From an uncultured virus (IMG/VR IMGVR_UViG_2061766007_004303) (taxonomy: Duplodnaviria; Heunggongvirae; Uroviricota; Caudoviricetes): DNA of 28,511 nt. The position numbers were made by a program, and so were the translations under genes. Under the pieces are notes generated by a model. It was not told the DNA's origin, did no database searches, and was given only the letters and a program-made list of their open reading frames with translations. Shown here in pieces: positions 1,392-23,260 of this stretch; the first letter of the stretch is position 1; each line of letters opens with the position of its first letter. The stretch lies in IMG/VR virus record IMGVR_UViG_2061766007_004303; one strand, written 5' to 3'.

Positions 1392-3101
1392 CTACATGGA
1401 ATCATTCCCGATTTTTAGCACGGGGAAACCATCCGTGAGGGGATGTGACGTATGCCGGATCATGAGGACAGTACGGTCGTGGAAGACACGCAGAACGGCC
1501 TCCAGAAATAACGATTCGTTGTCGATATCAAGGTGAGCAGTGGCTTCGTCGAGGAGCAGGATGCGTGTGCCGCGAAGGAGTTCGCGAGCGAGTGCGAAGC
1601 GAAGGCGTTCACCCGAAGAAAAGTTTCGTGCGGATTCTGTGAGCTCTGTGTCGAGTTTACGCGGAAGCGTGTGGACGACGGCATCCGCTCCGGCGTCGGC
1701 GAGTGCAGTGAAAATGGCGTCGTCGGAGGGCGTTTCGCGGCATCCGAGCGTGAGGTTGGCGCGGAGAGAGGATGGGATAAACTCGGGGAACGGGCCGAGA
1801 TATCCGATCTGACGGCGGAGTGCACGGACATTGTAGTCGTCGATAGGGCGACCGTCGAACAGGATGGAACCGGAAACGGGCTTATAGAATCCGAGGAGGA
1901 GTGCGAAGAGGGTGCTTTTGCCGGAGCCGGAGGGGCCGGAGACGAGGAGCTTCGCGCCTGGTTCGAGCACGAGGTCGATGCCGTCCAGTACGGTGTGGCC
2001 GGGATGATATGCGAAGATGAGTTTTTTTAGTTCGATGGATCCTTTCAGCTCGAAATCTTCGATGCCGGAGTCGAGTCGAGGTTCGCGTGTAGCGTTCTGG
2101 AGTTCGATGAGGCGTGCGGCGGATGCGAGTGCGGATTGTGTAAGCGGGAACGCGCTACAGAGCTGGCTGACGGGGTGGAAGACGTTCATAAGGTAGCAGT
2201 TCAACGCCCAGAGCGAACCGAGAGACCACTGCCCCTTCAGGATGAGGTGGATGCCGACTGAGACGAGGACGCCCTGACAGACGAGCGGGATGAGCCCGGT
2301 AAGGAAGAGGAAGGTGTTTGCAAGCTTGACCGCACGCAGGCGGAAGAGGGTTTCGCGTGCGAATCCTGTGCGGATGGCCCCGCCCACGCGTTCTTCGGCG
2401 GCACTGGACTTCACGAGATCGATGCTTCCGAGCGAGGAAGCGAGCATGCGTTGGTTTCGGGCGTTGAGTTCGCTGATTTCGCGGGAGACGGCGTAGTGCT
2501 GTCCGCGGAACTTGTAGAGCAGGATCGCATAACAGGGGAACACGAGGAGGACAGCGAGCCCGGTGCGAGGGCTGAGGAGGAAGAGGAAGACGAGGCCGCC
2601 CGCGACTTTCAGGAGGTTTGCGAGAACAGTGAAGAGCGTGTTGGAGAAGAAGATCTGAAGCTGGGTGACGTCGTTCGCGAGGCGACCGGCAAGATAGCCG
2701 CCGCCGAGCTGATCGAGCAGACCGGGCGGCAGGTCGAGCAGACGGTCCGTGATGCGTGATTTGAGGCGGAACATGACCTTGTGGACTGTGGAGTTCACGA
2801 CGCGCTGGCGGAGAAGTGCCTCCGAGCGGACCAGCAACATCAGAAGTCCCGCAACAACGAAGAGATACCAGATGCCGTCTGCTTCGCGTCCGGTCAGGGC
2901 GTTGATGAGGCGTTTCTGGATGATCGGGAGGACATAGCCGGCTGCCGTGACGAGCAGGACACCCGCAAGGACTCCAACGTACACCCAGCGCCACGGATGG
3001 ACTGCACGCAAAAAGAAACGCACGAATACAGAGATCTGAGGCCCGGAAGAGTCCTGCGAAACGATTTGATTGTCGTTTCGGGCTAGTGCTTTCAGTTCCA
3101 T
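1392..3101 (-). CDS. ABC exporter (fused TMD + NBD), no C39 peptidase domain
   Basis: About 6 hydrophobic segments are followed by Walker A GPSGSGKS, a variant signature FSSGE, Walker B LLLDEATAHLD and an H-loop. It starts 8 nt after the nucleotidyltransferase stop. Confidence 0.93.
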   Translation of the reverse strand: MELKALARNDNQIVSQDSSGPQISVFVRFFLRAVHPWRWVYVGVLAGVLLVTAAGYVLPIIQKRLINALTGREADGIWYLFVVAGLLMLLVRSEALLRQRVVNSTVHKVMFRLKSRITDRLLDLPPGLLDQLGGGYLAGRLANDVTQLQIFFSNTLFTVLANLLKVAGGLVFLFLLSPRTGLAVLLVFPCYAILLYKFRGQHYAVSREISELNARNQRMLASSLGSIDLVKSSAAEERVGGAIRTGFARETLFRLRAVKLANTFLFLTGLIPLVCQGVLVSVGIHLILKGQWSLGSLWALNCYLMNVFHPVSQLCSAFPLTQSALASAARLIELQNATREPRLDSGIEDFELKGSIELKKLIFAYHPGHTVLDGIDLVLEPGAKLLVSGPSGSGKSTLFALLLGFYKPVSGSILFDGRPIDDYNVRALRRQIGYLGPFPEFIPSSLRANLTLGCRETPSDDAIFTALADAGADAVVHTLPRKLDTELTESARNFSSGERLRFALARELLRGTRILLLDEATAHLDIDNESLFLEAVLRVFHDRTVLMIRHTSHPLTDGFPVLKIGNDSM

Positions 3102-3109
3102 GCGGCAGA

Positions 3110-4292
3110 TTATTTGATGCGGGATGGTGTCGAATCTACGGATTCAACAAGGGCAGTGTATTTTTTCAGGTTAGGATTCCATCGAAGGAACGAGGAAACA
3201 GCACGACATCCCCGCGTCCAGAACCAGCAGACATATCCCCACATGACGCGTCCCCATGCACCATGTTTCGGCAAGTAATAGATTCGCCGTATCATGTCCG
3301 GGTTATGCGTTCGGATAATCTCCAGAGCTCCTTTGATCATATGCCCCTGGGCTTCATGCCTGCTCAGGGAAAGCGATACATTTTCCGGTTCGCCGAGTTT
3401 GCCGCGCAGTTCGAAGATCCGGCGGAAATCAGCTGCTTTTTTCTGGTCTGCCTTGAAATCCGCAATCACATCCGCAGGGAAAAATTCAGGGAATGCCGCC
3501 AGCAAATCTCCCGGATACGGCAAATGCCAACGGATCGCCATATTACGAAGTTCCGNNNNNNNNNNGTATGATCACCGCAGCATCGGTAAGCAGTTTTGGA
3601 ATATGAGCGTGATAATACGATTGCGATGCGGCATGACGGGTGAGCATGAGCAGGTTCATTTCCGGAGACAGCACACGTTGACCGTCTCCGGCGGGATACT
3701 CCATCGTATGGTCCCACATCTCGTGCAAATCTACGTCGTTGAAGTTCGCCAACGTGAAATGAGGCTCGACCGTGTACTGACCTCGTACATGCGGAGAAAA
3801 ATGGTGTTTCGCTGTTTTGAATGCGGCTTCATTGGCGTCCGAATAATGCTCCGGTACTTTCCATCCGTCTTCCGCCAGTACAGCGAGCGCACGTTCACAA
3901 TCATCCGGATGAAACCAGATGTCCCAGTCGTTAAACACGCGCAATGCGGTGTCCGGGTATAAGCGATAAGCCAGGTCCGCACCTTTGATCGGCGCGAACC
4001 TCAGCCCCTGCGCGGCAAGCATACGATAGAGACGTTTCAGTTCTTGTTCTCCAAGGATCGCTTTCGCCTGATGCGCCTGATAGTTTTTCCGGTATTCCAC
4101 TTGCTCCGACTTCGGCAGGACATCGTACAGATACCGATAGAACCATGCCGTCAGACCGAAGTTTCTTACATCGGCTTCCAGTTCGACGCATCGAAACTTG
4201 TTCTGACTGCTATAATACTTCTTAGCATCACCGAAGATACAGGCGCCAAGAAACTGTAACAATGAAGTCGGAATTCCGTAATCGTAGCTCAT
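3110..4292 (-). CDS. Nucleotidyltransferase family protein (NTP_transf_5-like, the type found in lasso/RiPP clusters)
   Basis: Motif IKGADLAYRLYPDTALRVFNDWDIW matches LKG..L...Y.....R...DxD, with VEPHF and LTRHAASQ downstream. The two ORF-track pieces (3543-4292 and 3110-3541) are split only by the N-gap at 3556-3566. The start overlaps the peptidase stop (ATGA). Confidence 0.85.
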
Positions 4293-4903
4293 AGCTCACT
4301 TCCTTCTTTCATCTTGATCTCCTCGGAACACTCGGATTCCATGTCCGACATTTGAGCCGGAATCCTGAAAAAAAGACGTTNNNNNNNNNNNNNNNNNNNN
4401 NNNNNNNNNNNNNNNNNNNNNNNNNNNNNNNACTGTACAGTCCCATCGCGGAATCTCGTTTCTTTTCGGGCCGGGATTCGTAGAATTCCCAGCTTCCGGA
4501 AAAACGGAAACAGATTTCCGGCTGTTCTTTTGAACCGGAGAATCCGCTGCTGGCGATAAAAACGCCTCATCCCGTAGTATCCGCCGTCCACCTGAAGGAC
4601 GACCTTCGGTGATTCGCCGGGAATCATTGCCTCCACGATCATGAACTTGCTTTTTCTTGTCAGTTTCATCTCGTCCGACTGGGGGTTGTTGTCCCCCATA
4701 GTGACTGCATAATCCGGGGTTTTATCGATGATACGATGAACATAGTGAGGTGTACGGTCGAATACGGCTACGATGTCGCCGCATTCCAGCATGCCGAACG
4801 AAATACTGCTCAGAAGCAGGATATCTCCGTGCTTGAACATTCCGCGCATACTGTTCCCGGTATAGTATGCCTTGGTGAAGTCGTCCAGTTCACTCATCAA
4901 CAT
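4289..4903 (-). CDS. S24/S26 signal-peptidase-like protein, soluble Ser/His type
   Basis: YTGNSMRGMFKHGD (catalytic Ser box), GDIVAV, YVHRII and TMGDNN. No N-terminal TM helix. N-gap at 4381-4431. Confidence 0.85.
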   Translation of the reverse strand: MLMSELDDFTKAYYTGNSMRGMFKHGDILLLSSISFGMLECGDIVAVFDRTPHYVHRIIDKTPDYAVTMGDNNPQSDEMKLTRKSKFMIVEAMIPGESPKVVLQVDGGYYGMRRFYRQQRILRFKRTAGNLFPFFRKLGILRIPARKETRFRDGTVQXXXXXXXXXXXXXXXXXXRLFFRIPAQMSDMESECSEEIKMKEGSEL

Positions 4904-4907
4904 GGTA

Positions 4908-4952
4908 TCATTCCTCGGATAGTAACGACCTGGCTCGAAGGTCTTCCAGAAA
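4908..4952 (-). pseudogene. Remnant 3' end of a second pqqD/RRE gene
   Basis: Translates to FLEDLRARSLLSEE*, against FLEDLQARSLLSEE* at the end of 7422-7682. Identity is 36/45 nt and the differences are almost all synonymous. It contains the GAGGA RBS used by the peptidase gene. Confidence 0.8.
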
Positions 4953-4995
4953 CCCGGATATTAAAGAAAAAGTGCAACATGATAAATCATCTCCC

Positions 4996-7352
4996 TCATA
5001 CTTGCAAGCTCGCAAGAAGTCCGTTGTCGGATTCCTCGAATACCAGCTCTGAGCTGAACCCGAGGAACGCGCCCATACCGGACAGCAAGTCGAACTGTTC
5101 CTTGTCCCCGGGGCTGTTTTCACCGAACTTCAGCGTGATCCTGTCTGCCGTTACTCCGGTGACCGTAACACTGTTGTCGCCGTCCGTGTAGGTAAGCAAT
5201 TCAGCATTCCAGTTCGATTCATCACCGCTGGTGAACCAGAGCGTGACGGAGCCAGTCGCGAGCTGTTCCACGGTATCCGTTCCCCAGTTCTCGCAGAACG
5301 TAAACATATCATCCCCACCACCACCGTGCATACGGTCGTTGCCGATGCCACCCGCAATCACGTCGTTGCCGGACGCACCAACAATACGGTCATCTCCTGC
5401 GTCGCCGAACAGCTTATTCTCGCTTTTGTTCGCCCAAAGCGTATCGTTGCCTGCGCCGCCGCGGATCGTCAGGCCATTGCCAACGTATTCAAAGCGCTGG
5501 CTGGTCATATCTACGATGTCATCTCCGGCACCGCAGCGGATTTCGTTAATCCGGGCAATACGTGACTGCTGTGTTTTGATTTCCTCCGGCAATTCCGTAA
5601 ACTCGTCGTCCACGAATATCGCGTCTCCGTTTTCATCATCGGTCAGGCACAGGATATTGGCGTCGTCCGAGCCGAAGAAGAAGCTCTTGATCCGGTTCCT
5701 TCCGTCTGCGGAAACGATCTCGTTCGTTCCAGTCCAATCGTCAATGGAGCCAACGTGCTGGGCATAATACCCGACCTCCCAGTTCTCGTCCGCCGTTGCG
5801 AAGAAAATGTCCCCATCCCCGTCTGAATTGGACTGCAGCACCTTCGGCTCGCCGGGAATGTCGTCGGAATGGATCTCGTTTCCCTCCACCCATTGGTCGC
5901 TGTCTTCGATTCGGACACGCCACTGGTACGTGCCGGCAGGCAGTGCCAGCATATCCAGGGCGTTTGTGGCTGTCGTGACCTGAATGCCGTGCAGGAAGCT
6001 GTCCACGCTGTATTCCACCACGCATCGTCCCGCTTCGGCCGTTTTCCAGCTCACTCGATCCTTCGTACCCATCAATTCCTCCGGTACAGGACTCGGCGTC
6101 TTCACCTCAAGCGTCAGGGAGGAACCGCTCAGGTTCAACGTGAAGTCTTCGTCTCCGATTCTGATCGTGTCGCCGACCATCAGCGTGCCGAGGATGCCTC
6201 CGGATGTGTTCACCACGGAAATCGTATCTTTGAACTCATCCGCACCGCCCGCGAGTGAATAGACGCCCGCTTCCGCAGAATCGGCNNNNNNNNNNNNNNN
6301 NNNNNNNNNNNGGAAAGATCATTCACCAGCACTTCCGCACCCGCGGAGGTCTGCGTTAAATCGAAGTCCAGGGTTGCGCCGTTGCAGGCAGAAACGGATG
6401 CACCGGATTCAAACATCATTGTTCCGGCCAATCTGCCTCCACTGGAGATGCAAACAAAACCGCCGGAATTAGCGGTGATGCCATGCACTGTACCCAGTGC
6501 CTCAAATTGGCCGTCGGAGTTGACTACTGTATTATTTGCCCTGCCACCTTTATAAATATAAAAAGAGCCATCAGCATTGACAGTCGTATTGTTTGCCACG
6601 CCGTCTTTGCGGATATCCATACTGCCACTGGTCATAACGGTGTTGTTCGCTATGCCGCCACTGGAAACAAAAAGAAAGCCATCAGCTTTGACGGTCGTAT
6701 TGTTTGCCACGCCGCCATAACGAAGATCAACACAGGCATTGGAATTGACCTCAGCGAGATTTGCCGTACCGCCGTTGCGGACAATAACAATACTGAAGCT
6801 GTTGACTGTAACGATGTTCGCAATGCCGTCGCTGGAAACCCAGACTTCCCCGCCTGAGTTGACCGTGGTGTCGTTCAGTATGCCATGAACATCCAGACGA
6901 CCGTCGGAGTTGACGATCGTGTTGTTTACTTTGCCGGAGGTGTAGACATAGAGTTCCCCTTCGGCATTGACCGTAGCATTGTTTACCTCGCCGCCGTCAT
7001 ATACATCAAGGTTGCCGCCGGCGTTAATGATGACGTTATTCGCCGTGCCGCCACTGGAAACAAAGAGAATGCCCTCGGCTTTGACTGCAGCGGCAGACGC
7101 GATGCCGGTGGAACTGATGTACATACGGCCGCCAGAATTGAGAACCGTGTTGTAGGCCGTGCCACCTGAATGAATAAAAACAGTTCCACTTTCGTTGACC
7201 TCGGTATAGTCTGCTGTACCGTAGACTTGGACCATACCATCCTTGTTGACTGCAGTCTTGGTCACGATACCACCGCTGCATATGATCAGGGAATCATTTT
7301 CGAGGATGATTCCGTCGGAAGAGTCTCCGCTGGAAATAATGTATTCAGCCAT
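4996..7352 (-). CDS. AIDA-type beta-helix repeat protein with C-terminal RTX Ca-binding repeats (~780 aa, secreted)
   Basis: The N-half has ~19-aa VSSGG.ANNT.VN..G repeats. The C-half has GGAGNDTL, GDAGDDRI, ASGNDVI, GIGNDRM and GGGDDMF nonapeptides. The two ORFs are joined across the N-gap at 6286-6311. No signal peptide. Confidence 0.85.
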
Positions 7353-7421
7353 TTTGAGGCAACTTTTCTTGTGTGTTATTTCTATTTGAACTTAGTAATT
7401 GTCCAGTCATCCCTCAAATAA

Positions 7422-7682
7422 TCATTCCTCGGACAATAACGACCGCGCTTGGAGATCTTCTAAAAAAGCTTTCACGTCGGCTGCGGCCTGTTCTTTCGTC
7501 ACACCGGAAAACCTTTCGACCAAACCGGCGATCATTTCCGACTCGCTGGTTCCTTCTTTCACGCAGCTCCACAGGTAGACCCCGGTTTTATTGATCGACA
7601 TTGCCGCGTTGGTGTTCGGGTCGAAGACCAGGCCGGTTCCGTCGAATTGTTCGGCCATAATTGCAAATGGATTCAGTTTCAT
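7422..7682 (-). CDS. PqqD-family RiPP recognition element (ScmD-like)
   Basis: 86 aa, LNP...EQFDGTGLVFDPNTNAAMSINKTGVYLW...G.SESEMIAGLVERFSGVTKEQAAADVKAFLEDL. This is the typical PqqD pattern (N.TG..LW; DV..FL..L). Confidence 0.92.
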   Translation of the reverse strand: MKLNPFAIMAEQFDGTGLVFDPNTNAAMSINKTGVYLWSCVKEGTSESEMIAGLVERFSGVTKEQAAADVKAFLEDLQARSLLSEE

Positions 7683-7695
7683 ATTCAGCGTCCTT

Positions 7696-8695
7696 TTATG
7701 TGTTTGTTATCGTTGTTTTGTTGTTGCGAAGCTTCCTGTTTTCTTCGGCCAGTTTTGTTACCATGCCGTACCGGTTTCCGCTCGGCACATCAAGCAGCCC
7801 GGTTCCCTTGATAAAATCGTAGATCAATTCGCTCCCCCAGTGTTCCACCGCCAGACGAATCGTGTCCTCTGTGATTTCCGGCAGCCCCATCAATTTGTCC
7901 AGCACTCCGCATCTCAATACGATGCCGATGGAGTCCACCAGGAACTGGCGGGCGGCGTATTCATGCCGGTCACGCAGGAACTCTTCGATCAACGGCAGGA
8001 TCTCGCTTGTCGAGCACATCTGCTCGAATTGCCTCGCCGTAGGGGGCGATGAAAACACCCCGGCTCCGAGGAACCGGTATTCATAGTACGGACCCTCCAC
8101 CACGCTCCGGAACGTCTTTGCATAGTACAGAAGGAAAAACGTAATGTACAGGTCCGTGAATTGTTTGAGCTCAATATCGGGCATGCTTTCCGCCGCTGTA
8201 CGGCAAATGTTCCCCCGGTAGATCTTCGTATAAACGTTGTGCGGGAACCGGTGCATACAGAAGCAGTCGTACAGGATCTTTTCCCCGGACGATTCCATCG
8301 GCCGGCATTGCAGAGACTTCATGAATGCGTCGATGTTTGCCCCTTTCTGGTGTTTCACGCGAATCGCGAACTGAAGGATATCCACATCGTACTCTTCGAT
8401 CAGCCGTACCGCGTTCTCGCATGCTCCGGGCAGCAGAATATCGTCCGAATCCACGAACATCACATACTCCCCGTTCGCCTCAAGCAACCCCATTTTTATC
8501 GCCAGGACGATTCCGCGGTTCTTCTCGAAGCCGTAAAGACGCAGACGATTGNNNNNNNNNNNNNNNNNNNNNNNNNTCATTGAGGCAAAGCACCTCGATT
8601 TCGCGCAGGGACTGCGTTAAAACCGATTCCAGGCATTCCCGCACAGTCTTTTCGCCGTTGTACACGGGGATGATGATCGATACTTTCGGCTTCAT
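7696..8695 (-). CDS. Family 2 glycosyltransferase
   Basis: MKPKVSIIIPVYNGEKTVRECLESVLTQSLREIEVLCLN, then (after the N-gap at 8552-8576) NRG...GEYVMFVDSDD (DxD). The ATG at 8693-8695 overlaps the kinase stop (ATGA). Confidence 0.92.
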
Positions 8696-9357
8696 CGTGT
8701 CTCCAGGCTTTCCAGATAAGTTTCGATCACGTGGATCGGATTCCCCTCCAGCACGGTCAGCAGTGCGCGAGGCGGGAACATACCTGTGATGATTTCCGTC
8801 TGGGTTCGGAGGATCTTCGTCAGGCGCTCTTTCATGCCTCCGGGAAGAGCATTTGCCGCTGATATGAACCAGTAGAACATGGACCGGTAGCACTGGGCAA
8901 AGAACTGGGCATCCTGAATCGGGACGATCTCGTCAAGCCCGGATTCGCTTCGCCCAAGAGCGAGCACTCCGGCAAGCGGGATTTCCTCGCCGGATGGATA
9001 GTTCCATTCGTTCCGGCCCTCCCTGCATACGCTCCACGTCNNNNNNNNNNNNNNNNNNNNNNNNNNNNNNNNNNNNNNNNNNNNNNNNNNNNNNNNNNNN
9101 NNNNNNNNNNNNNNNNNNNNNNNNNNNNNNNNNNNNNNNNNNNNNNNNNNNNNNNNNNNNNNNNNNNNNNNNNNNCCGTCTCCAGCGTCGCACAATGGAC
9201 CAGGAGCGCTTTCCCGCCGTGCAGGATCGAATTCAAACAGGCGAAGATCAGTGTCGCCTGCCAGACATAATTCCGGTAATAAACCGGAGTTCGAGGCTCC
9301 CGTTTCCAGCCGGCGATCAGGACCTGGTTCCAATCCTTTGCGTATGCAATTTCCGTC
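8692..9357 (-). CDS. HprK-related/ScmC-like P-loop kinase, paralog 2 (5' end hidden in an N-gap)
   Basis: Reading 9356 downwards gives ...YVWQATLIFACLNSILHGGKALLVHCATLET[gap]TWSVCREGRNEWNYPSGEEIPLAGVLALGRSESGLDEI...QCYRSMFYW. It is clearly paralogous to, but different from, 9368-10092. Confidence 0.75.
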   Translation of the reverse strand, partial: DGNCIRKGLEPGPDRRLETGASNSGLLPELCLAGDTDLRLFEFDPARRESAPGPLCDAGDXXXXXXXXXXXXXXXXXXXXXXXXXXXXXXXXXXXXXXXXXXXXXXTWSVCREGRNEWNYPSGEEIPLAGVLALGRSESGLDEIVPIQDAQFFAQCYRSMFYWFISAANALPGGMKERLTKILRTQTEIITGMFPPRALLTVLEGNPIHVIETYLESLETR

Positions 9358-9367
9358 NNNNNNNNNN

Positions 9368-10092
9368 TTCCAGAAGAACATCGACCGGTAGCACTGCGCG
9401 AAATACTGCGCCGCGCTCAGCTCCACGATCTCGTCCCGCCCCGTTTCGCTGCGCCCCAGAGCCAGGACGCCGATCAACGGCAGTTCTTCCCCCGAGATGT
9501 AAATCCATTCATTTTTTCCCTCCTTGCAGGCGCTCCACGTCGGCATCCGACGTACATACACCGTTTCCCCTCCGGTGAAATCCAGCAGCGCCATGTCGTC
9601 TGAAATACATTTCCCTCCTTGTGCACGCCATCGCGCCGATGCCGTGCTTTTCCCCATGCCGCTTTCCCCGAACAGCAATACCACCCCTCGTTCCGTTTCC
9701 AATGCCGCACAATGCACCAGCACCGCCTCCGCCCCGCGAAGGATCGCGTTCTCCCCGGCCAGGATCAAGCCTGTCTGCCACGAATACAGTGCGTACTTCC
9801 GGGCGTCGCGCGGCCGGACCTCGCGGCAGCGGAGCAGAAGGTGTCCCCGGTCCGGCGGCAGCCCCATGCTTGTGGTTTTTGCCAGCTGGTGCCATTCGAC
9901 CCCGTCCGGAGCATTTCCAGGCAGGACCAGTTCCGCGTCCGGGATCCCGGATGCGATATCATCCATTTCTTCCGTTTCCAAACCGAGAAGCGTCCCGAAT
10001 TCCGCGAACGGCAGGTCTGCCTCCGGGCAATGCGTCTGCACGCGGATGGCGTCATGATTGTGGAGGCGGATCGTGATTTGTCGGGTATACAT
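9368..10092 (-). CDS. HprK-related/ScmC-like P-loop kinase, paralog 1 (3' end hidden in an N-gap)
   Basis: LVHCAALETERGVVLLFGESGMGKST (H-x-A plus Walker A), ISDDMALL (DD motif) and MPTWS. The likely start is ATG 10092, because the TTG at 10179 lies inside a terminator hairpin. Confidence 0.82.
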
Positions 10093-10138
10093 AGGCTGGT
10101 GAAAGAATTGTCTTGTCTTCTCGAAAATGCTCGGGGGT

Positions 10139-10181
10139 AAAAAGAATGTTTGCACTGCGACGTTTCCCTCGCAGTGCAAAC
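10139..10181 (-). terminator. Rho-independent terminator/attenuator after the precursor peptide gene
   Basis: Perfect 13-bp stem GTTTGCACTGCGA / TCGCAGTGCAAAC (10148-10160, 10169-10181) with an 8-nt loop, followed on the minus strand by ATTCTTTTT. A second imperfect hairpin lies at ~10185-10208. Confidence 0.75.
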
Positions 10182-10226
10182 GGATTACTTGTGATGAATC
10201 ACAGGTAAGTACTGATGAGACGGATA

Positions 10227-10370
10227 TTAATCCAGGTCATCATCACTCGGCTCTTCGCCGCCACTGGGCTGGGTTTCCCCGTAGAGCACCGGCGTCGAGA
10301 CAGCCGTGATGTCGAGGATGGCAGGAGCCTCGTAGGGCTCCTGCGCGAAGGATTTGTTTTCAAATTTCAT
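10227..10370 (-). CDS. Putative RiPP precursor peptide, 47 aa: MKFENKSFAQEPYEAPAILDITAVSTPVLYGETQPSGGEEPSDDDLD
   Basis: Translated by hand; it is below the ORF-track cutoff. An AAAGGA RBS sits 10 nt upstream. YEAPAI matches the YxxPxL RRE-binding leader motif, the tail is acidic and Ser/Thr/Gly-rich, and it sits at the head of a kinase/PqqD/peptidase/ABC cluster. Confidence 0.85.
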   Translation of the reverse strand: MKFENKSFAQEPYEAPAILDITAVSTPVLYGETQPSGGEEPSDDDLD

Positions 10371-10413
10371 AGTTTGTTATCCTTTCTTTGTAAGGTTTGT
10401 TGTTGGTTGATGA

Positions 10414-13400
10414 TTAAGCGAGCTGCGAGAGGACCATGGCGTTGTTCTCGTCGATGCTCAGCTTGTAGTCCGCGGTGACCCATGCGCCTTCCTCGAAGCT
10501 GGCACCAACGCCGTCGAACTTGACGGAATCGGACTTGAAGCTGTCGAAGCCCGCGAAGTTCGTGGTGTCGCCGAAGAGCGTCCAGGAGTCGAGCCCGGTG
10601 GCCTCGAAGTAGTCGCCGATACCCTTCAGAGTCAGCGTGTCGCCCGCGAAGTCGTTGATGAACGCGCCGTTCAGCGTGCTGCCGGCTTCGAACGTCCAGT
10701 TCTCGACATTGGACAGCCTGACCGTGTTCTGCAGCGTGGCGTTGGTGTCGAATCTGTCTTCGTCAAGGAGCTCTTCGCCGTTGCTCAGGACCTCGACATC
10801 GGAGAAGCCGGAGACGAGGCGGGAATTGATTGCGGCCTGGAAACCGGTGAAGGAGAGCGTGCGAGANNNNNNNNNNNNNNNNNNNNNNNNNNNNNNNNTA
10901 GTCCGAACCGCAGCCGCCCCAGATTTCCTTGACGACCAGAGCATCGGCATCGTCGGACTGTCCGGCCAGCGTCAGCTTCGTGGTCTCGACCTTGCCGGAA
11001 CCGAAGGAACCGACGAACAGGCAGCCAGCCATGTTGATCTTCTCGGCGCCGCCGACCGTGAGGGTCACGTTGGAGGATTCGACAAACGTGCAGGAAGAAG
11101 AGGACTTCTTGTTGCCGTAGTTGCCGCCGTACACATCCTTCGCGAACGAACCGCCGTTGATCTTCAGGTTGGTGCTTCCGACTTCCACGGAACCCTGCAG
11201 GTTTTCACCCTGGTACAGGATGCCGGTGGCAACGTAGTTCCCGAAGGTACCGCCGTTGATCGTCAGGTTGATGTCGGCGAGATTGCCTTGCGCATCTTCA
11301 CGGTAATAGACGGCTCTGCCGCTTGCAACGTTGATTCTGTCGCCGCCAACCACGACCTTCGTGAAGCTCCCACCCTCAATCGCGATATTGATATCACCAC
11401 CGAGGTTCACGCCGGCGCGTCCCGTCGTAGCTTCGGTATACTTGCCGCCGTAAATACCGACGGNNNNNNNNNNNNNNNNNNNNNNNNNAACTGCCGTTGC
11501 CCTGGAGGAACAGCGTCGAGGTCGCGCCGCCTTCGATGACCACGTTATCGGCGTAGTACACATTCTCATCACTATCTTTCCAAGAGTAGTTAAGAGCCTT
11601 GTTGATGGCCGTGTTGCCGGTAGCCGTGATCACATTGGTGGCGTCCTTAATCAGGGTGAGTGTCTTCCCTTCCGCATCGAAGGCAAAGTACTTCTTCCAG
11701 TTGTTGGAGGCGTTTTTCCCGCTGATCGTGAGATTGTTATTGCGGAGACCTTCCGTAATACCAGTGATGGTAGCAGGAGCCGTATTCTTCGTGGCCGTGA
11801 GTCCGGTCACGTCAACATCGATTGTGCCGGAGAAGGGCTTCGTGGCAGGAAGAGTGAAGGCCAGCGTGGAGCTGACATCCGTGTAGATCTTGCCTTTGCC
11901 AGTGAGCGTACCGAGGTCGACAGTCATATTGCCGGACGGATTCTCGTCATCCTTATTGGTGGCATAGAACTCACCATCAATTTGCGAGGAGCTAGCCGTG
12001 AAGCTGAAGCCCTGATCGGCCTCGATCACGGAATTTGCGCCCAGCGTGAGCTTGCCGGTGATCGTGGTGTCGCGGTCGAACTCGACTTCGGAGGACGACG
12101 TGGTGCCGCTGATGGTGACATTGCCATTGATCGTGGCGACTCCATCGAAGTCCATGTCAGAATTCGTGATCACGACATTGCCATGGACGATGGTTGCGTC
12201 GGTCTTGGTGAGCTCGTCGGAGTTGACGCGGGAGTCGCCGGTGATCGACAGGACGGTCGCAGAAGATCCCTCGATTCCGATCGTGACAGCGCCTTCGAAA
12301 TCAACTTCGGATCCATTTTTGATGGTGACGGTATTGGCCGTCGCGCCTTCTTCGATGAAGACAACCGAATCATCGATGGTCACAGCTTTCGCCGAGAATT
12401 CGCCGAACGTAACGTCCGCATTCTCCTGGATGGTGACGCTCTTGCTCTCGGAGAAGTCGGCGCCTTCGAACACAGCGGTCGCGGCGGCAATGGAGACGGT
12501 CGCGTTTGTACCGGTAGCGACGTCATTGATGAACTCGATGGATCCGGCGGTAATACCTTCATCATCATCATTAGGCTCTGTCACCTCGGACGCGATGATC
12601 AGGTTGTTGAAATTGAACGTACCAGCAACCAGTCTGCCGGTGGCATTGATCATGTCAACGGTAAGATCCTGCGTTGCAGAGAGGTTCAGATTCAGGTTGC
12701 CGTAAGCATCTTCCTGAGGCACGAAATGGATAAACTCGGTATCATCCGCGATCTGCGTGATGGCATTGGCGGAGGTGAAAGCATTCACAGCATACACATA
12801 TCCATGACCGGCAAACGAGAAGGACTCACCGGGGGCATACTCAGTTGCAAGATCGCTGTACACAAGCAGCTCGGTCATGTCGGCATCGCCGCCGAAGAGG
12901 TACACACCCTTGTTATCACCGTCGTTCTTGACGAAGACCTGGAGATCAGGATTGTTCACAACAATGTCGCCGTTGTTCGCCAGGGTTCCGGTCACGGAGA
13001 TGACCCTCACCGTGTTGTCTTCTCCCAGGACGAACTGGCTGGCGTCGATCGTGATCGTGCCATTGTTGGTGAAATTCTTGACCGTGAACGCGGATTCGAC
13101 GTTGACATTGGCATTGGCATTGTTCACGAAATTGCCCGTCTGAATCGCAGCAGCGTCTTCAGCGGCGTCGATCGTGATCGTGCCACTGTTCGTGACAGCG
13201 CCGAACACGCCGCCGGCGATCGTGAGTTCACCGAGGTTCGTGACAGCGGCGGTATTGCCTGTTTCGCCGACAATAGAAACGGAGGCTGTGGAGGCTGTGA
13301 TGTCGAGCGTGCCGCCCTTGACCATTGCGGTGACGTTTGCGCCGTCAGCCAGCGTGATGGTGCCGGTGAGCTTGCTGATATTCAGGCTGGCGGTGCCACT

Positions 13401-16400
13401 GACCTTGAACGATGCGCCAGCTGCATTGGTAGTGACAGTGGCAGCGGTCACATTGACAGCGCTGATCGAATCGGTGTTCACGATATTGCCGGCGGAGATG
13501 TTGCTGGCATTGATCGTGCCGTTGTTCGTGATGTCGCCAGTCGTCGTGATCTCGACGGCTTTTCCTTCGGCGCCGATGCTGCCGGAGTTGTCGATCGCGT
13601 CGGCATCAATGCTGCCGGCTTCGATCGTGCCGGCGTTGCTGATGGAAGCGCCGCTGATATTGCCGGTGACAATGATCTCACCGGCATTGTTGGTGATGTC
13701 GCCGTCGGCCNNNNNNNNNNNNNNNNNNNNNNNNNNNNNNNNNNNNNNNNNNNNNNNNNNNNNNNNNNNNNNNNNNNNNNNNNNNNNNNNNNNNNNNNGC
13801 GCCGCTGATATCGCCGGAGACGGTAACTTGACCGGCGTTGTCGATGTCGCCGTCGGCCTCAATGCTGCCGGCTTCGATAAAACCATCGCCAGTAGTAGCA
13901 TTATACGCTCCGTTGGTCAGGGTTGTTGCCGTGATCGTGCCCTCTTCGCCAGTCTGGAGATAGCCGTCATTCGTGATCGCATTGGCACTAACGCTGCTGC
14001 CAACAACAGCCTTGGCTCCGGCTTCGTTTACGAACGTACCATCCTCGGAAGTGATATTGATCGCTCCAACGTCGATCTCATTCTTGTTTACGATGGAGCC
14101 GGCATTCAGCGTACCGGCAAAGACATCGCCATAGAGGTTGTTGGTGAGTGCGCCGGTGACGGTAAGAGTTGTAAGTTTTTTACCTTCAACCTGCGAACCG
14201 ACCGTACCGTAGTTCGTAATGGAAGCAGCGGTAATATTGGCGGCGGTGATAAGGGATTTATCAACGGGCTCAGTTGCTCCGTTATCAATGCCGTTCACGA
14301 TATCGCCGGCGGTCAGATCGCCAGTGACCTCAATGCTGCCGACGCCAACNNNNNNNNNNNNNNCGTTGGTGATAGCGGGACGAAGACCAGTCGTCTTGTT
14401 CGGGGTCAGGGTCAGGTTGCCCGTGACATTGATGCTGCCGGCATTGTTCGTGATCGCGCCGGAGCCCGTCACATTGCCGCTGGCGGCAAAGGTTCCGTCA
14501 ATGGCTTCGGCGGTCTTTGTGCCCTTCGTGCCGTTCGTGATCGAACCGACCGCGATTCCGGTATCAGCACTTTCGGCGGTCAGAGACACTGTTCCGGCTT
14601 TGACCGAGACGCTGCTGAAGCTCTTGCCCGTGAGGGTGACGCTTCCGGCATTGTTGATGATACCGCCGACGGTGCTCGCGCTGCCGCTAACCGTACCATC
14701 GTTCGTGATTCTTCCGGTCTTCGTAACGCTAGTGAGCGTGAGCGTACCGGCGTTCGTGATCGCGGAAGCAACAGAAGTACCGGAAACGAGAGTTGCCGCA
14801 GTATTAGCCGCAACATTGAGCGTGCCGCCCTTGGCGATGGTCGCCTTGACGTTTGCGCCATCGTCCAGCGTGATGGTGCCGGTGAGCGAGCTGCTGGTTC
14901 CGGAAATATTCAGCGTGGAGTTGCCGCCGACCGTGAACGTTGCGCCCTCCGCACTGGTATCGACTACCGTCGCACTCAGCGTGGAGCCGGAAACCTTGAT
15001 CGCGCGGCTGTTCTCGATGGTACCGGCCGTCAGGCTGGAGGAAGCACCGGTAACATTGATCGTGCCGCCGTTCTCNNNNNNNNNNNNNNNNNNNNNNNNN
15101 NNNNNNNCTTTTGCGGTCGGAATGGTGAAGCCTTCATCATAGAAACGGATACGGCTGAACTGGGCATTCGTGTTGTTCAGCGCCAGGGTGCCGCCATCCG
15201 TGAAGGTGAGACGCTGCATCTTGAACTGCGGTTCGGCCTCAGCATTGCCGTTGACAGTCAGACTGCCGTTCACGCGGATGTAGGTGCACTGCTGATCTTC
15301 GCCCTCGGACACGCCGGTGCCGTTATACTCGCTGATCACAGAACCGGTCTCGGAAACCGTCACGGACGAATAGGGATTGACCTGAATGAAGGACTTGATG
15401 TCGCCGTTGACAGTCAGGTTGACAGCGCCTGCGGTACGCGTGAATTTGCCCGTGTCAGTGTTGTAATCAGATTCATCCAGCGATTCGCCGACTTTCAGCA
15501 TGGAACCACCGTTCAGCTTGGCGCNNNNNNNNNNTGATCTTCGTCCTGGGTCACGCCGGTGCCGTTAGACTCGCTGATCACGGAACCGGTCTTGGAAACC
15601 GTCACGGACGAATAGGGATTGACCTGAATGAAGGACTTGATGGCGCCGTTGACAGTCAGTTTGACAGCGCCTGCGGTACGCGTGAATTTGCCCGTTTGAG
15701 TGTTGTAATCAGATTTATCCAGCGATTCGCCGACTTTCAGCATGGAACCACCGTTCAGCTTGGCGCCTTCAGCGAGAATGAACTCGGGGAGCGTGGCTTG
15801 AGCGATCGGAGTTTCGCCGTCCTTGTCGTAGACTACGAAGGAGTTACCTTCCTTCTTGTAGATGATATCGTGCATCAGATAGAGGCGTTCCGTGAAGGAA
15901 GCGCCGCCCGCGCCGGTGGTGATGGTAACAGTGGGCTGATCCGTGTAGAACAGGGTTCTGCCGTCAGTGATCGCTCCGGTGAGCACGAGATTCTTCGCGT
16001 TCACAGCGGCAGCTTTGACATCCTGATCAACGCCTGTGGCGCTGTAGGACAGGGCAGAATCTCTCAGGCTGGCAAACGCATTGTAGCCGTAGATGTGACC
16101 ATCAGATGTTTTCTCACCAGGGGTAAGATCCTCGTCCGCATAAGCACTGTTGATGTAAAGCGTCTCGTTGTTCTGGCCTTTCGTAAGCCAAAGACCGGTA
16201 TCAAGCTTGATAAGGCCATAGGTCTCGTCTCCGAGCTTGATGGATCCCGCTTGCGCTCCGTCAACCGTAAACGTGACATCAGCACCAATCGTACCATTAA
16301 TGAGCTGGTAGAGGTCCCATTCGGGCGCCGATCCAGTGTCAAAACCGGAAACAAGGTTGATCGTGCCGGAGGAGATGTTGGCGTTAAGCTTCGTGGCTTC

Positions 16401-18617: not shown

Positions 18618-18821
18618 TGTTTTTTCCTTTGTTTTGCTGTTTTAGTACAGCGGTTTGTAAGAAAAAGAATTGATTGGTTCGAAGTTCAAGAAAGAAGGGG
18701 TGTATACCCCGCGTGCGAAGTGAGAGTTTTTGCCTCCTTGGTTGAGGTTGTGGGAGAGGTAGCGGGGCGTCCCGCAGACGAGAAGGGAATGATTCCTTGC
18801 GACTCCTTTCTTGATGTTATT

Positions 18822-21720: not shown

Positions 21721-21748
21721 CAGTAGAAAATCTTATCAAATCTATTTC

Positions 21749-23249: not shown

Positions 23250-23260
23250 GAGGTCAAAAG

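What the first reader, a model, noticed from the sequence alone, without database searches (positions are those of the whole stretch)
1392..10370. RRE-dependent RiPP-like cassette with no visible class-defining enzyme: precursor, 2 kinases, GT2, PqqD, S26 peptidase, nucleotidyltransferase, ABC exporter
Seen: eight co-oriented genes, several with ATGA overlaps, headed by a YxxPxI peptide. Established: PqqD/RRE domains bind YxxPxL leaders. HprK-like kinases (paeninodin PadeK type) phosphorylate precursor Ser, and an NTP_transf_5 enzyme (pseudomycoidin PsmN) is implicated in glycosylating the phospho-peptide. The kinase PTWS and PqqD FD..LxFDPxT patterns recall SynChlorMet ScmC/ScmD, whose cassettes carry two radical SAM/SPASM enzymes. 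Here no asparagine-synthetase-like cyclase, B2 protease, radical SAM, YcaO or LanM is visible. Inference: a linear phospho/nucleotidyl/glyco-peptide pathway with an S26 leader peptidase, apparently an uncharacterised RiPP type.
Basis: partly seen in the sequence, partly recalled or inferred. Interest (0 to 1): 0.9.

Follow-up and report, generated by a model that had tools for sequence, protein, structure and literature searches.

The report
Lentisphaeria linear phosphopeptide (LPP-like) gene cluster
This rumen-bacterium operon encodes a small acidic peptide plus a kinase, a leader-binding protein, a soluble signal-peptidase-like protease, sugar-adding enzymes and an exporter, the same enzyme set as the linear polyphosphorylated peptides described in 2026 and so far reported only from Bacillota.

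Summary
The cassette is real, on the minus strand, and conserved in rumen Lentisphaeria. It needs three corrections. Contigs of 4 of 4 public runs join 9368 to 8778, so there is one 299-aa kinase; the "second kinase" is most likely a scaffolding chimera. The 143-aa ORF at 3110-3541 is the C-terminus of the nucleotidyltransferase. An AIDA/RTX-repeat gene (4996-7352) lies inside the operon and was overlooked.

The conserved core is precursor, HprK/PEPCK-fold kinase, PqqD leader-binding protein (RRE) and a soluble Ser/His/Asp S26 peptidase. GT2, NTP_transf_5 and the ABC exporter are accessory. No lasso cyclase, B2 protease or radical SAM gene was found in the window, in 12 close loci, or bridged inside the kinase gap.

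It is no longer uncharacterised: Popov et al. (Nat Commun 2026, PMC13381572) described this enzyme set as linear polyphosphorylated peptides (LPPs), calling them "restricted to the Bacillota".

New here:
- a PVC-group lineage with acidic cores;
- a different peptidase architecture;
- linkage to giant adhesin genes;
- sister cassettes in the same class that add a radical SAM/SPASM enzyme (SynChlorMet-like);
- natural PqqD-S26, S26-NTase and S26-ABC fusions.

Verdict: new variant of a known kind, of moderate interest.

The parts
10227..10370 (-). Precursor peptide gene (47 aa). The leader carries EPYEAPAILDI and is followed by a short hydrophobic stretch, an invariant Gly and an acidic G/S/D/E-rich tail.
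   Evidence: ORF and sequence. Homologous small ORFs lie directly upstream of the kinase in 7 of 12 close loci. They align with invariant Y13, E14, P16, I21, V24 and G31. A further 13 of 20 more distant loci have a YxxPx-hydrophobic ORF upstream of the kinase.
9368..10092 (-). HprK/PEPCK-fold peptide kinase, N-terminal 241 aa, cut by gap 9358-9367. It carries the P-loop GESGMGKST and an SDD motif.
   Evidence: NCBIfam ScmC 1e-11, HprK_rel_A 7.8e-7, Pfam Hpr_kinase_C 0.0041, all below cut-off. 176 homologues of about 290-300 aa. Invariant P-loop and DD. AlphaFold model of the 96%-identical P0001, pLDDT 91.5, matches PEPCK (E 4e-6) and HprK/P 1knx and 1ko7 (E 1e-4).
8692..8778 (-). 3' end of the same kinase gene (last 28 codons plus stop, overlapping the GT2 start by ATGA).
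   Evidence: Contigs of 4 of 4 runs join 9368 to 8778 with 88 letters between. 725+88+87 = 900 nt, in frame.
8779..9357 (-). Pieces of a second kinase variant (9176-9357 and 8779-9040, with gap 9041-9175). Most likely inserted by the scaffolder and not part of this operon.
   Evidence: Depth is zero in X3, X4 and X5 over bins 8828-9337; only X1 covers them, and its contigs join back onto kinase-1 positions 9572 and 9677. The fragment is 99% identical to P0033 residues 198-312. No tandem kinase in any of 12 close loci.
7696..8695 (-). Family-2 glycosyltransferase (frame broken by gap 8552-8576).
   Evidence: PF00535 1.3e-7 (N-terminal piece) and 5.6e-11. The L001 orthologue is an intact 346-aa GT2, 3.8e-34. 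Contigs fill the gap with about 26 letters.
7422..7682 (-). PqqD-family RiPP recognition element (86 aa).
   Evidence: PF05402 2.4e-15; ScmD 7.5e-11 (42 bits, cut-off 100). The profile's best PDB hits are LppB 9x8z_B (1.1e-3) and lasso TbiB1 (1.2e-3). Invariant N31 and D69 align with LppB N33 and D70.
4996..7352 (-). AIDA-repeat plus RTX-repeat surface protein. Two ORFs here (6210-7352 and 4996-6216), probably one gene broken at gap 6286-6311. It lies inside the operon.
   Evidence: PF16168 8.7e-28, TIGR04415 3.6e-43, PF00353 1e-12. L011 has a single 985-aa AIDA+RTX protein downstream of S26, 60% identical in the RTX part.
4289..4903 (-). Soluble S26B-type (Ser/His/Asp) leader peptidase with an extra C-terminal domain (gap 4381-4431).
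   Evidence: sigpep_I_arch 6.5e-8, Peptidase_S24 1.3e-3, below cut-offs. S16, H54, R55 and D75 are invariant in 55 sequences. Model pLDDT 94.8; its N-terminal half matches LexA, UmuD, SEC11, SpsB and SipA. Natural fusions to PqqD, NTase and ABC.
3110..4292 (-). NTP_transf_5 nucleotidyltransferase. One gene, split by gap 3556-3565 into ORFs 3543-4292 and 3110-3541.
   Evidence: PF14907 2.3e-28. Both pieces match single 396-399-aa proteins in L001, L009 and L012.
1392..3101 (-). MsbA-like half-ABC exporter (569 aa, no C39 peptidase domain).
   Evidence: PF00664 and PF00005; MsbA_rel 226 bits, HlyB type 215 bits, below cut-offs. Orthologues adjoin the cassette in L006 and L012, are fused to S26 in L007, and lie upstream of the giant adhesin in the genome of L011.
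10414..18617 (-). Context: giant repeat adhesin-like gene(s) directly upstream and co-oriented, fragmented by gaps, with a conserved C-terminal domain of no known family.
   Evidence: ORFs. Homologous giants of 729 to more than 3,800 aa, with conserved C-termini ending ...LT.(L/I)A, precede the precursor in 9 of 13 loci including the window. No NCBIfam match for their ends.

Best explanation
This is an LPP-type (linear polyphosphorylated peptide) RiPP pathway of a rumen Lentisphaeria bacterium.

Proposed order of events:
1. The 47-aa precursor is bound through its YEAPxI leader by the PqqD-family RRE.
2. The HprK/PEPCK-fold kinase phosphorylates, possibly repeatedly, a Ser or Thr. The site would be either in the PV(S/T) position or in the first residues after the invariant Gly.
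3. The RRE presents the leader to the soluble Ser/His/Asp S26B-type peptidase, which removes it near the hydrophobic stretch before the invariant Gly.
4. The NTP_transf_5 enzyme and the in-cluster GT2 probably add sugar to the phosphate or the peptide.
5. The MsbA-like ABC protein exports the small acidic product, which stays linear.

What is shown elsewhere: RRE-dependent S26 cleavage and Ser polyphosphorylation, demonstrated in the Paenibacillus alginolyticus lpp system. What is inferred here: everything about this peptide, including the phosphosite, the cleavage site and the glycosylation.
For: 1. The gene set matches the lpp core. It comprises a YxxP precursor, an HprK-like kinase, a discrete RRE, an archaeal-type S26 peptidase, PF14907 and an MsbA-like ABC. 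The order here is A-K-B-S-N-D against A-K-B-S-D-N in the paper (PMC13381572, sections 6 and 7). Relative L025 has kinase-PqqD-S26-NTase-ABC contiguous.
2. The core is conserved. In 12 close loci, PqqD follows the kinase in 11 and S26 is present in 9. The precursor is found in 7 of 12, and in L002 an assembly gap sits where it would be.
3. Functional residues are conserved.
   - Kinase: P-loop and DD.
   - RRE: N31 and D69, aligned with LppB N33 and D70.
   - Peptidase: S16, H54 and D75, against LppS S29, H68 and D93.
4. Fold checks agree. The kinase model matches PEPCK and HprK/P. The peptidase model matches LexA and signal-peptidase folds.
5. Natural fusions tie the parts together.
   - PqqD-S26 in 10 of 13 N-terminally extended S26 homologues tested.
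   - S26-NTP_transf_5 in P0257, from a Lentisphaerae MAG.
   - S26-ABC in L007.
6. No class-defining enzyme was found.
   - 0 of 124 flanking ORFs in the 12 close loci match Radical_SAM, Asn_synthase, Transglut_core3, YcaO or LanC.
   - No rSAM-like frame in a six-frame scan of the window and L001-L012.
   - PF13471 in 0 of 5 related genomes.
   - The kinase gap is bridged.
7. The leader shares YxxPx(V/I)Lxxx-PV with P. alginolyticus LppA, read by eye from the paper's supplement row; this was not computed.
Against: - Sequence links to the Bacillota proteins are weak. The RRE profile hits LppB only at E 1.1e-3, no better than lasso TbiB1.
- The paper's BLASTP-based SpI set holds no Lentisphaerota entry.
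- I could not compare LppS, LppK or LppN directly.
- The second half of the LPP leader motif (HQxIxFETxxS) is absent, and the cores are acidic rather than Gly/Asn/Lys-rich.
- The peptidase lacks the roughly 25-residue N-terminal segment that in LppS contacts LppB, and it carries an extra C-terminal domain.
- NTase and ABC each accompany the core in only 3 of 12 close loci, and GT2 in 1 of 12.
- LppN showed no activity in the published system, so glycosylation is unproven anywhere in this family.
- No expression or product data exist for this organism.
- The window is a gappy scaffold. The position of the AIDA/RTX gene inside the operon was not verified by independent contigs.
Confidence: 0.72

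Rival explanations
1. The cassette serves the neighbouring giant adhesins rather than making a free natural product. Either the small acidic phosphopeptide, or the kinase and peptidase themselves, act on or with the giant surface proteins. Possible roles are secretion cofactor, surface anchor, Ca2+-binding matrix or regulator.
For: A giant adhesin-like gene with a conserved, unclassified C-terminal domain sits directly upstream and co-oriented in 9 of 13 loci. AIDA/RTX genes lie inside or beside the cassette in the window, L010 and L011. In the genome of L011 the ABC gene lies on the far side of the giant gene. The paper notes that Bacillota lpp clusters sit in capsule loci and speculates about biofilm. 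Earlier scan notes on rSAM-bearing relatives in other phyla also mention giant surface proteins; these notes are unchecked.
Against: The linkage is restricted to the close clade. More distant rSAM-less loci (L023-L032) have unrelated neighbours. The precursor has a typical RRE-binding leader, and the enzyme set works on a small peptide in the published system. The giants show no shared leader-like N-terminus: the FxxPxI seen in L001 is not kept in the window. This reading concerns biological role and is compatible with LPP chemistry.
Confidence: 0.12
2. It is a radical-SAM (SynChlorMet-like) peptide pathway whose rSAM/SPASM maturase is encoded elsewhere, so the product is cross-linked as well as phosphorylated.
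For: The kinase and RRE score best against ScmC and ScmD. In the same class, 5 of 20 sampled loci, plus L020, have an rSAM/SPASM gene next to a homologous kinase, usually together with PqqD and S26. Some precursors contain Cys pairs, for example in L003, L005 and L011.
Against: The rSAM-linked kinases are the distant branch (profile E 1e-22 to 1e-36 against 1e-45 or better for rSAM-less loci). There is no rSAM-like frame in the window or L001-L012. A ScmE-like gene (E 1.3e-53) is present only in G005 and belongs to its own complete cassette. G001-G004 have only generic rSAM hits of 67 bits or less on other contigs. The window's precursor has no Cys.
Confidence: 0.07
3. It is a phosphorylated lasso-peptide cluster (paeninodin or pseudomycoidin type) whose cyclase and B2 protease are hidden in gaps or elsewhere in the genome.
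For: The leader motif, the kinase, the NTase and the ABC are all typical of paeninodin-like clusters (review PMC8498205, passages read). If the core started at V24, a Glu would sit at core position 9 (my own reading of the sequence).
Against: PF13471 (B2) is absent from 5 of 5 related genomes. Each genome has only one strong Asn_synthase match, about 290 bits and housekeeping-like, on a different contig. There is no cyclase in 12 close loci or in 15 further loci. The kinase gap is bridged by 88 letters. An S26 peptidase takes the place of B2.
Confidence: 0.02
4. The window copy is a decaying or mis-assembled remnant and makes nothing.
For: There are 30 gaps and a chimeric kinase region. Decayed relatives exist: L004 has an in-frame TGA in PqqD and no S26; L012 has His-to-Pro at the catalytic His and a truncated kinase beside an integrase; L008 has a truncated kinase.
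Against: Outside the gaps all window genes are open, with catalytic motifs intact. The same arrangement is assembled independently in runs of other studies at 95-99% identity. L001 shows the intact arrangement without any N.
Confidence: 0.05

Closest known systems
Linear polyphosphorylated peptides (LPP), lppA-K-B-S-D-N of Paenibacillus alginolyticus DSM5050 and other Bacillota (Popov et al., Nat Commun 2026, PMC13381572; sections 6, 7, 11, 12, 35 and supplementary file 2 read)
   Same: The enzyme set is the same: HprK-like kinase, discrete PqqD RRE, archaeal-type Ser/His/Asp S26 peptidase, PF14907 NTP-transferase and MsbA-like exporter, with no cyclase. The gene order is nearly the same. The leader has YxxPx(V/I). 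The RRE keeps the Asn and Asp that hold the leader's Pro and Tyr. Both sit in a cell-surface gene neighbourhood.
   Different: - Phylum: Lentisphaeria (PVC group), whereas the paper calls LPPs restricted to Bacillota and its data set has no Lentisphaerota entry.
- Precursor: the leader lacks HQxIxFETxxS, and the cores are short and acidic (G/S/D/E) instead of Gly/Asn/Lys-rich.
- Peptidase: about 190-200 aa, with a short N-terminus and an extra C-terminal helix plus beta domain, against 151 aa for LppS.
- Kinase and RRE: they score best against ScmC and ScmD models.
- Accessory genes: GT2 and an AIDA/RTX gene lie inside the operon, while NTase and ABC are often missing in relatives.
- Sequence similarity to LppB is only marginal (E 1e-3).
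Tailoring module of phosphorylated lasso peptides: paeninodin PadeK and pseudomycoidin PsmK/PsmN (review PMC8498205, passages read)
   Same: An HprK-like kinase acts on a linear precursor. A nucleotidyltransferase is implicated in adding hexose to the phosphate. There is a PqqD-type B1, a [Y/W]xxP leader and an ABC exporter.
   Different: There is no Asn-synthase-like cyclase and no B2 cysteine protease. An S26 serine peptidase is present instead. The precursors do not end in Ser, which is the PadeK target.
SynChlorMet cassette (NCBIfam TIGR04248 ScmD, TIGR04249 ScmC, TIGR04250 ScmE, TIGR04251 ScmF). I know of no experimental work, and a full-text search for 'SynChlorMet' found 0 papers.
   Same: The best NCBIfam matches of the kinase and the RRE are ScmC and ScmD. 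Sister loci in the same class (L020, L033, L034, L036, L041, L042) pair the homologous kinase with a ScmE-like rSAM/SPASM enzyme. All but L041 also carry PqqD and S26.
   Different: The window and its close relatives have no radical SAM enzyme. The ScmC and ScmD scores (45 and 42 bits) are far below the equivalog cut-offs (125 and 100).
SipW / SEC11-type (S26B) signal peptidases
   Same: Ser-His(-Asp) catalytic residues with GxSM, HR and GDNN motifs, and a LexA/signal-peptidase fold.
   Different: No predicted membrane anchor was seen by eye. The peptidase is cytoplasmic and RRE-linked, and it has a C-terminal domain of its own.

Membership tests
LPP (linear polyphosphorylated peptide) RiPP clusters | Archaeal-type S26 (SpI-like) leader peptidase with a Ser/His/Asp triad | tested here: met
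   S16, H54 and D75 are invariant in 55 homologues. sigpep_I_arch 6.5e-8, sub-threshold. S24/S26 fold. The paper gives S29, H68 and D93.
LPP (linear polyphosphorylated peptide) RiPP clusters | Discrete PqqD-type RRE next to the peptidase, with the Asn and Asp that fix the leader's Pro and Tyr | tested here: met
   PF05402 2.4e-15. N31 and D69 are invariant and align to LppB N33 and D70 in 9x8z_B.
LPP (linear polyphosphorylated peptide) RiPP clusters | The RRE belongs to the LppB clade | tested here: inconclusive
   The profile hits LppB at 1.1e-3 and lasso TbiB1 at 1.2e-3. No tree was made, because the LPP RRE sequences are held only in the paper's supplement.
LPP (linear polyphosphorylated peptide) RiPP clusters | HprK-like kinase | tested here: met
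   Hpr_kinase_C 0.0041, HprK_rel_A 7.8e-7, ScmC 1e-11, all sub-threshold. P-loop and DD invariant. The model matches PEPCK and HprK/P.
LPP (linear polyphosphorylated peptide) RiPP clusters | PF14907 NTP-transferase and MsbA-like exporter in the cluster | tested here: met
   Both are in the window. Each is present in only 3 of 12 close loci. Among the further loci the NTase is in 6 of 20.
LPP (linear polyphosphorylated peptide) RiPP clusters | Precursor with the YxxPxVLxHQxIxFETxxS leader motif | tested here: not met
   Only the first half, YExPx(I/V), is kept, followed by PV in the close clade. HQxIxFETxxS is absent.
LPP (linear polyphosphorylated peptide) RiPP clusters | No macrolactam cyclase or B2 protease needed | tested here: met
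LPP (linear polyphosphorylated peptide) RiPP clusters | Poly-phosphorylation of a core Ser and RRE-dependent cleavage | not testable with these tools
Lasso peptides | Asn-synthase-like macrolactam cyclase (C) and transglutaminase-like B2 protease | tested here: not met
   PF13471 in 0 of 5 related genomes. There is only one housekeeping-strength Asn_synthase per genome, on other contigs. None in 27 loci.
SynChlorMet cassette | Two PqqE-like radical SAM/SPASM enzymes (ScmE, ScmF) beside ScmC and ScmD | tested here: not met
   No rSAM-like frame in the window or L001-L012. The ScmC and ScmD scores are below the equivalog cut-offs. Sister loci do carry a ScmE-like gene.

The most novel reading that the evidence does not exclude
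The kinase-RRE-S26 triad may be an old, phylum-spanning RiPP core. It can be combined either with NTase and GT2 (LPP type) or with rSAM/SPASM (SynChlorMet type).

In rumen Lentisphaeria it would make short acidic phospho(glyco)peptides that work together with giant adhesins, for example co-exported with them, bound to them or to Ca2+, or shaping the cell surface. If so, this would give LPP-type peptides, whose role is unknown, their first biological function. It would also show that LPPs are not a Bacillota speciality.
Probability: 0.22. Interest if true: 0.75.

Novelty: new variant of a known kind. Interest (0 to 1): 0.45.

Why it matters
LPPs were described only in 2026. Their final structure and role are unknown, and they are stated to be restricted to Bacillota. 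This cluster and its relatives add five things.
- **Wider range.** The same logic is common in an unrelated, uncultured rumen lineage. 39 of 301 sampled genomes of the class carry the kinase, not all in rSAM-less cassettes.
- **A second precursor family.** Comparing it with LppA helps separate what the RRE, kinase and peptidase each read.
- **Natural fusions.** PqqD-S26, S26-NTase and S26-ABC fusions independently support the published RRE-peptidase mechanism and tie the still-inactive NTase to the pathway.
- **A link to SynChlorMet.** LPPs connect to the never-characterised SynChlorMet cassettes through sister loci that add an rSAM/SPASM enzyme.
- **A lead on function.** The clade-specific linkage to giant adhesins suggests a cell-surface role.

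Tried and rejected
- **Whole genome of the window.** None is held, so absence of a cyclase or rSAM was tested only in related genomes and loci.
- **Kinase against solved structures.** The kinase profile found nothing at E below 0.4. The fold link to HprK/PEPCK comes only from the model.
- **Reaching Bacillota LppS.**
  - The word-based S26 search returned only close Lentisphaeria relatives.
  - The S26 profile search of 1.84 billion representatives found 4,278 hits, but the library has no names.
  - The cluster look-up named only one Lentisphaerae MAG.
  - The LppS, LppB and LppA sequences were seen in the paper's supplement but not entered into any tool. Direct alignments and an RRE or SpI tree were therefore left out.
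- **Leader-like N-terminus on the giant adhesins.** An FxxPxI was seen in L001, but the idea was rejected. The Pro is not kept in the window, and other giants start differently.
- **Gene calling.** My greedy ORF calling can hide genes under longer shadow ORFs. It missed a 249-aa radical SAM gene (no SPASM) on the opposite strand in L028, found by BLASTP and confirmed with Pfam. I therefore added a six-frame rSAM HMM scan. No comparable six-frame scan was made for cyclase, YcaO or LanM.
- **Other window ORFs.** The Pfam scan of the remaining window ORFs failed on a coordinate error and was not repeated.
- **Literature.** Searches for 'SynChlorMet' (0 papers) and for NTP_transf_5/PF14907 (2 papers held a term; the one listed is on phosphonate biosynthesis and unrelated) gave nothing.
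- **Kinase-2 coverage.** The lack of contig cover over the kinase-2 pieces in X3-X5 is not by itself proof of absence. The argument rests on the joints.

Full report
**What is in the window.** The window is a scaffold with 30 runs of N, 1,336 bases in all. The cluster lies on the minus strand between 10370 and 1392. Family scans give these genes:

| Gene | Coordinates | Evidence |
|---|---|---|
| Precursor, 47 aa, no family | 10227-10370 | Y13-E-A-P16-A-I18 |
| HprK-related kinase | from 10092 | ScmC 1e-11, HprK_rel_A 7.8e-7, Hpr_kinase_C 0.0041, all below cut-off |
| GT2 | 8695-7696 | PF00535 on both sides of gap 8552-8576 |
| PqqD | 7422-7682 | PF05402 2.4e-15; ScmD 7.5e-11, below cut-off |
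| AIDA-repeat ORF | 6210-7352 | PF16168 8.7e-28 |
| RTX-repeat ORF | 4996-6216 | PF00353 1e-12 |
| S24/S26-like peptidase | 4289-4903 | sigpep_I_arch 6.5e-8, below cut-off |
| NTP_transf_5 | 3543-4292 | PF14907 2.3e-28 |
| 143-aa ORF, no family | 3110-3541 | see below |
| ABC exporter | 1392-3101 | PF00664 and PF00005 |

ATGA overlaps join kinase to GT2 and S26 to NTase. A giant repeat protein, broken by gaps, lies upstream at 10414-18617 and is co-oriented.

**Corrections to the observation.**

*One kinase, not two.* Homologues of the kinase are single proteins of about 290-300 aa. None of 12 related loci has two in tandem. I laid Logan contigs of four runs from four studies on 7400-10450. 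In 4 of 4 runs a contig joins 9368 to 8778 with 88 other letters between. Record 10 of X3 (1,807 nt) runs from GT2 through the kinase into the precursor. The lengths 725 + 88 + 87 sum to 900 nt, so this is one in-frame gene of 299 codons.

The pieces read as 'kinase 2' (9176-9357 and 8779-9040) have depth only in X1, which may be the source sample. There they sit on small contigs whose other ends fall on kinase-1 positions 9572 and 9677. The larger piece is 99% identical to P0033, a different family member. The second kinase is therefore most likely a second variant threaded into the scaffold. The only gap that could have hidden a gene does not.

*Other corrections.* The 143-aa ORF is the C-terminus of the NTase, because both pieces match single 396-399-aa PF14907 proteins in L001, L009 and L012. 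L011 has a 985-aa AIDA+RTX protein, 60% identical in the RTX part.

**Relatives and the conserved core.** A search with the kinase found 176 proteins. Those that carry a name are from Lentisphaeria MAGs. A scan of species-representative genomes gave 12 loci, all from rumen Lentisphaeria or Victivallales MAGs. Presence of each part in these 12 loci:

| Part | Loci with it |
|---|---|
| PqqD after the kinase | 11 of 12 |
| S26 peptidase | 9 of 12 |
| NTase | 3 of 12 |
| ABC | 3 of 12 |
| GT2 | 1 of 12 |

Small ORFs homologous to the window's precursor lie just upstream of the kinase in 7 of 12 loci. In L010 an AIDA-like gene sits between them. In L002 an N-gap sits exactly there. The eight precursors share M1, Y13, E14, P16, I21, V24 and G31. 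The pattern is K/E-rich N-terminus, (E)PYExPx(I/V)x(D/E)Ix(P/A)V(S/T/A), then 2-5 hydrophobic residues, an invariant Gly, and an acidic G/S/D/E tail with a Ser within 2-6 residues of that Gly.

L001 shows the clean, N-free arrangement: giant adhesin, precursor, kinase, GT2, PqqD, S26, NTase.

**Is a class-defining enzyme hidden nearby?**
- None of 124 flanking ORFs in the 12 loci matched Radical_SAM, Asn_synthase, Transglut_core3, YcaO or LanC at E of 1e-4 or better. The downstream neighbours are unrelated housekeeping genes.
- My greedy ORF choice can hide genes; it did so once, in L028. It found no frame in the window or in L001-L012 at E of 0.01 or better.
- In five genomes behind the loci, PF13471 (lasso B2) was found in 0 of 5.
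- Each of those genomes has one strong Asn_synthase match (190-299 bits), on a different contig from the cassette, which I take to be AsnB.
- A ScmE-like rSAM (E 1.3e-53) occurs only in G005, and there it belongs to a separate cassette.

**Sister cassettes.** G005 has a second, distant kinase homologue in the arrangement PCAT, HlyD, PqqD (ScmD 1.8e-17), S26 (sigpep_I_arch 4e-13), rSAM/SPASM (ScmE 9.8e-54), kinase (ScmC 1.2e-9).

Sampling 301 genomes of the class, 39 have a kinase match at E of 1e-20 or better. I fetched 20 of these loci:

| Feature | Loci with it |
|---|---|
| PqqD | 17 of 20 |
| S26 | 13 of 20 |
| NTase | 6 of 20 |
| rSAM/SPASM beside the kinase | 5 of 20 (L033, L034, L036, L041, L042) |
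| YxxPx-hydrophobic ORF upstream of the kinase | 13 of 20 |

- L025 carries kinase-PqqD-S26-NTase-ABC contiguously.
- L036 combines the NTase and the rSAM.
- In the 15 loci without an adjacent rSAM, 111 ORFs gave no cyclase, YcaO or LanC match. The one radical SAM gene there, in L028, lay on an ORF left out of that scan: a 249-aa radical SAM without SPASM, on the opposite strand 2.4 kb away.
- The rSAM-linked kinases are the lower-scoring branch.

It describes a sister type, not this cassette.

**The parts look functional.**
- *Kinase.* The P-loop GESGMGKST and SDD are invariant or nearly so in 42 sequences. The model of P0001, 96% identical to the window's kinase, has pLDDT 91.5. It matches PEP carboxykinases (E from 4e-6, TMq about 0.5) and HprK/P structures 1knx and 1ko7 (E 1e-4). 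That HprK/P and PEPCK share a P-loop fold is from my own knowledge.
- *RRE.* The 11-sequence profile hits LppB (9x8z_B, E 1.1e-3), TbiB1 (1.2e-3) and TfuB1 (0.02). Its invariant N31 and D69 fall on the LppB residues N33 and D70, which the paper shows hold the leader's Pro backbone and Tyr hydroxyl.
- *Peptidase.* S16, M17, H54, R55 and D75 are invariant in 55 sequences, and no Lys is invariant. The model (pLDDT 94.8) has an N-terminal beta domain that matches LexA, UmuD, human SEC11A/C, SpsB and SipA. The Foldseek E-values are weak (0.014-0.3), but the probabilities are high for the LexA and SEC11 rows. A long helix and a small beta domain with no match follow.
- *Wider peptidase family.* The profile finds 4,278 representatives at E of 1e-3 or better, and 40 at 1e-30 or better.
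- *Fusions.*
  - Of 13 hits with an N-terminal extension of about 100-150 residues that I scanned, 10 carry PqqD there.
  - P0257, from a Lentisphaerae MAG, is S26 fused to NTP_transf_5.
  - P0388 is S26 fused to Wzy_C.
  - L007 has S26 fused to the ABC exporter in one 785-aa ORF.

**What it is.** A full-text search led to Popov et al., Nat Commun 2026 (PMC13381572). I read sections 6, 7, 11, 12 and 35 and searched its supplements.

[quoted passage not shown] The precursors bear YxxPxVLxHQxIxFETxxS.

Its experimental findings are:
- In B. subtilis the P. alginolyticus cluster gives a precursor with 1-4 phosphates on core Ser3.
- LppS (S29, H68, D93) removes the leader after T-1 and needs LppB.
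- LppK is needed for phosphorylation and for efficient cleavage.
- LppN had no visible effect.
- The final product and the biological role are unknown.

The window's gene set and order match this. By eye, the leaders also share YxxPx(V/I)Lxxx-PV with LppA.

The paper says LPPs are 'restricted to the Bacillota'. Its six supplementary files contain no 'Lentisphaer' or 'Victivall'.

**How it differs from published LPPs.**
- The host belongs to a different phylum.
- The second half of the leader motif is missing, and the cores are acidic.
- The peptidase has only about 13 residues before the catalytic Ser. LppS has about 28, including the helix that contacts LppB. The peptidase here also has an added C-terminal domain.
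- GT2 and an AIDA/RTX gene lie in the operon.
- NTase and ABC are often absent in relatives.
- Kinase and RRE sit closest to the ScmC and ScmD models.
- Similarity of the RRE to LppB is marginal.

I could not align LppS, LppK or LppN with the window's proteins, because those sequences were available only as text in a supplement. Homology with the Bacillota family, as opposed to assembly from the same parts, therefore remains open.

**Adhesin linkage.** A giant adhesin-like gene with a conserved C-terminal domain of about 100 residues, ending ...LT.(L/I)A and with no NCBIfam match, precedes the precursor in 9 of 13 loci including the window. In the genome of L011 the cassette's ABC homologue lies upstream of the giant genes. 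The linkage is not seen in the more distant rSAM-less loci.

Earlier notes of this scan on rSAM-bearing relatives in Acidobacteriota and archaea also mention giant surface proteins, and two of them name LPP as the closest known system. These notes are unchecked leads. This scan had thus met the rSAM-bearing relatives before on other DNA, but not this rSAM-less Lentisphaeria form.

**Verdict.** The proposed mechanism is probably right by analogy with a system characterised in 2026. The claim of an uncharacterised RiPP type no longer holds. What remains new is a PVC-group variant of LPP biosynthesis, with its own precursor family, its own peptidase architecture, an adhesin context and a visible bridge to the SynChlorMet cassettes.

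Noticed in passing
window 10414-18617 (-); L001 1328-9661; L005 30-8312; L011 45-9809; L010 44-7240 and 7518-9935: Giant repeat adhesin-like proteins (729 to more than 3,800 aa) have no obvious signal peptide (by eye) in the two copies whose start lies within the DNA held (window and L001). They share a C-terminal domain of about 100 residues ending ...LT.(L/I)A, which matches no NCBIfam model. They sit directly upstream of the precursor in 9 of 13 loci.
   Followed up: partly
L007 11135-13489; proteins P0257, P0279, P0280, P0287, P0351, P0382, P0388: Natural fusions of the S26 peptidase: to the ABC exporter (L007), to NTP_transf_5 (P0257), to an N-terminal PqqD domain (10 of 13 extended homologues scanned), and to a Wzy_C O-antigen-ligase-like domain (P0388).
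   Followed up: partly
L020 7186-13883 (-); L033, L034, L042; L036; L041: Sister cassettes in the same class have the arrangement PCAT, HlyD, PqqD, S26, rSAM/SPASM (ScmE-like), kinase. L036 combines S26, ABC, NTase, rSAM and kinase. Their precursors also carry YExPx-hydrophobic leaders (L036, L041).
   Followed up: partly
L004 about 4697-4951; L012 10474-11145; L008: Decayed copies of the cassette. L004 has an in-frame TGA at the conserved Trp of PqqD and no S26. L012 has His-to-Pro at the catalytic His of S26 and a truncated kinase next to a phage-type integrase. L008 has a truncated kinase next to an integrase.
   Followed up: partly
window 18640-19800: Two near-identical stretches are visible in the ORF translations, a tandem duplication of a few hundred bases between gaps, just upstream of the giant gene's start.
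   Followed up: no
window 20780-21382 (+) and 21700-28511: The right third of the window is fragmentary. By eye it holds an HTH/transposase-like ORF, small excisionase-like HTH ORFs and a DNA-polymerase-like fragment, with many gaps including 411 N at 26673-27083. It may be mobile or mis-scaffolded DNA. No family scan was completed for it.
   Followed up: no
L028 12152-12898 (-): A 249-aa radical SAM protein (Radical_SAM plus Fer4_12, no SPASM) lies on the opposite strand 2.4 kb from an rSAM-less cassette. By its size and domains it looks like an activating enzyme rather than a peptide maturase.
   Followed up: partly
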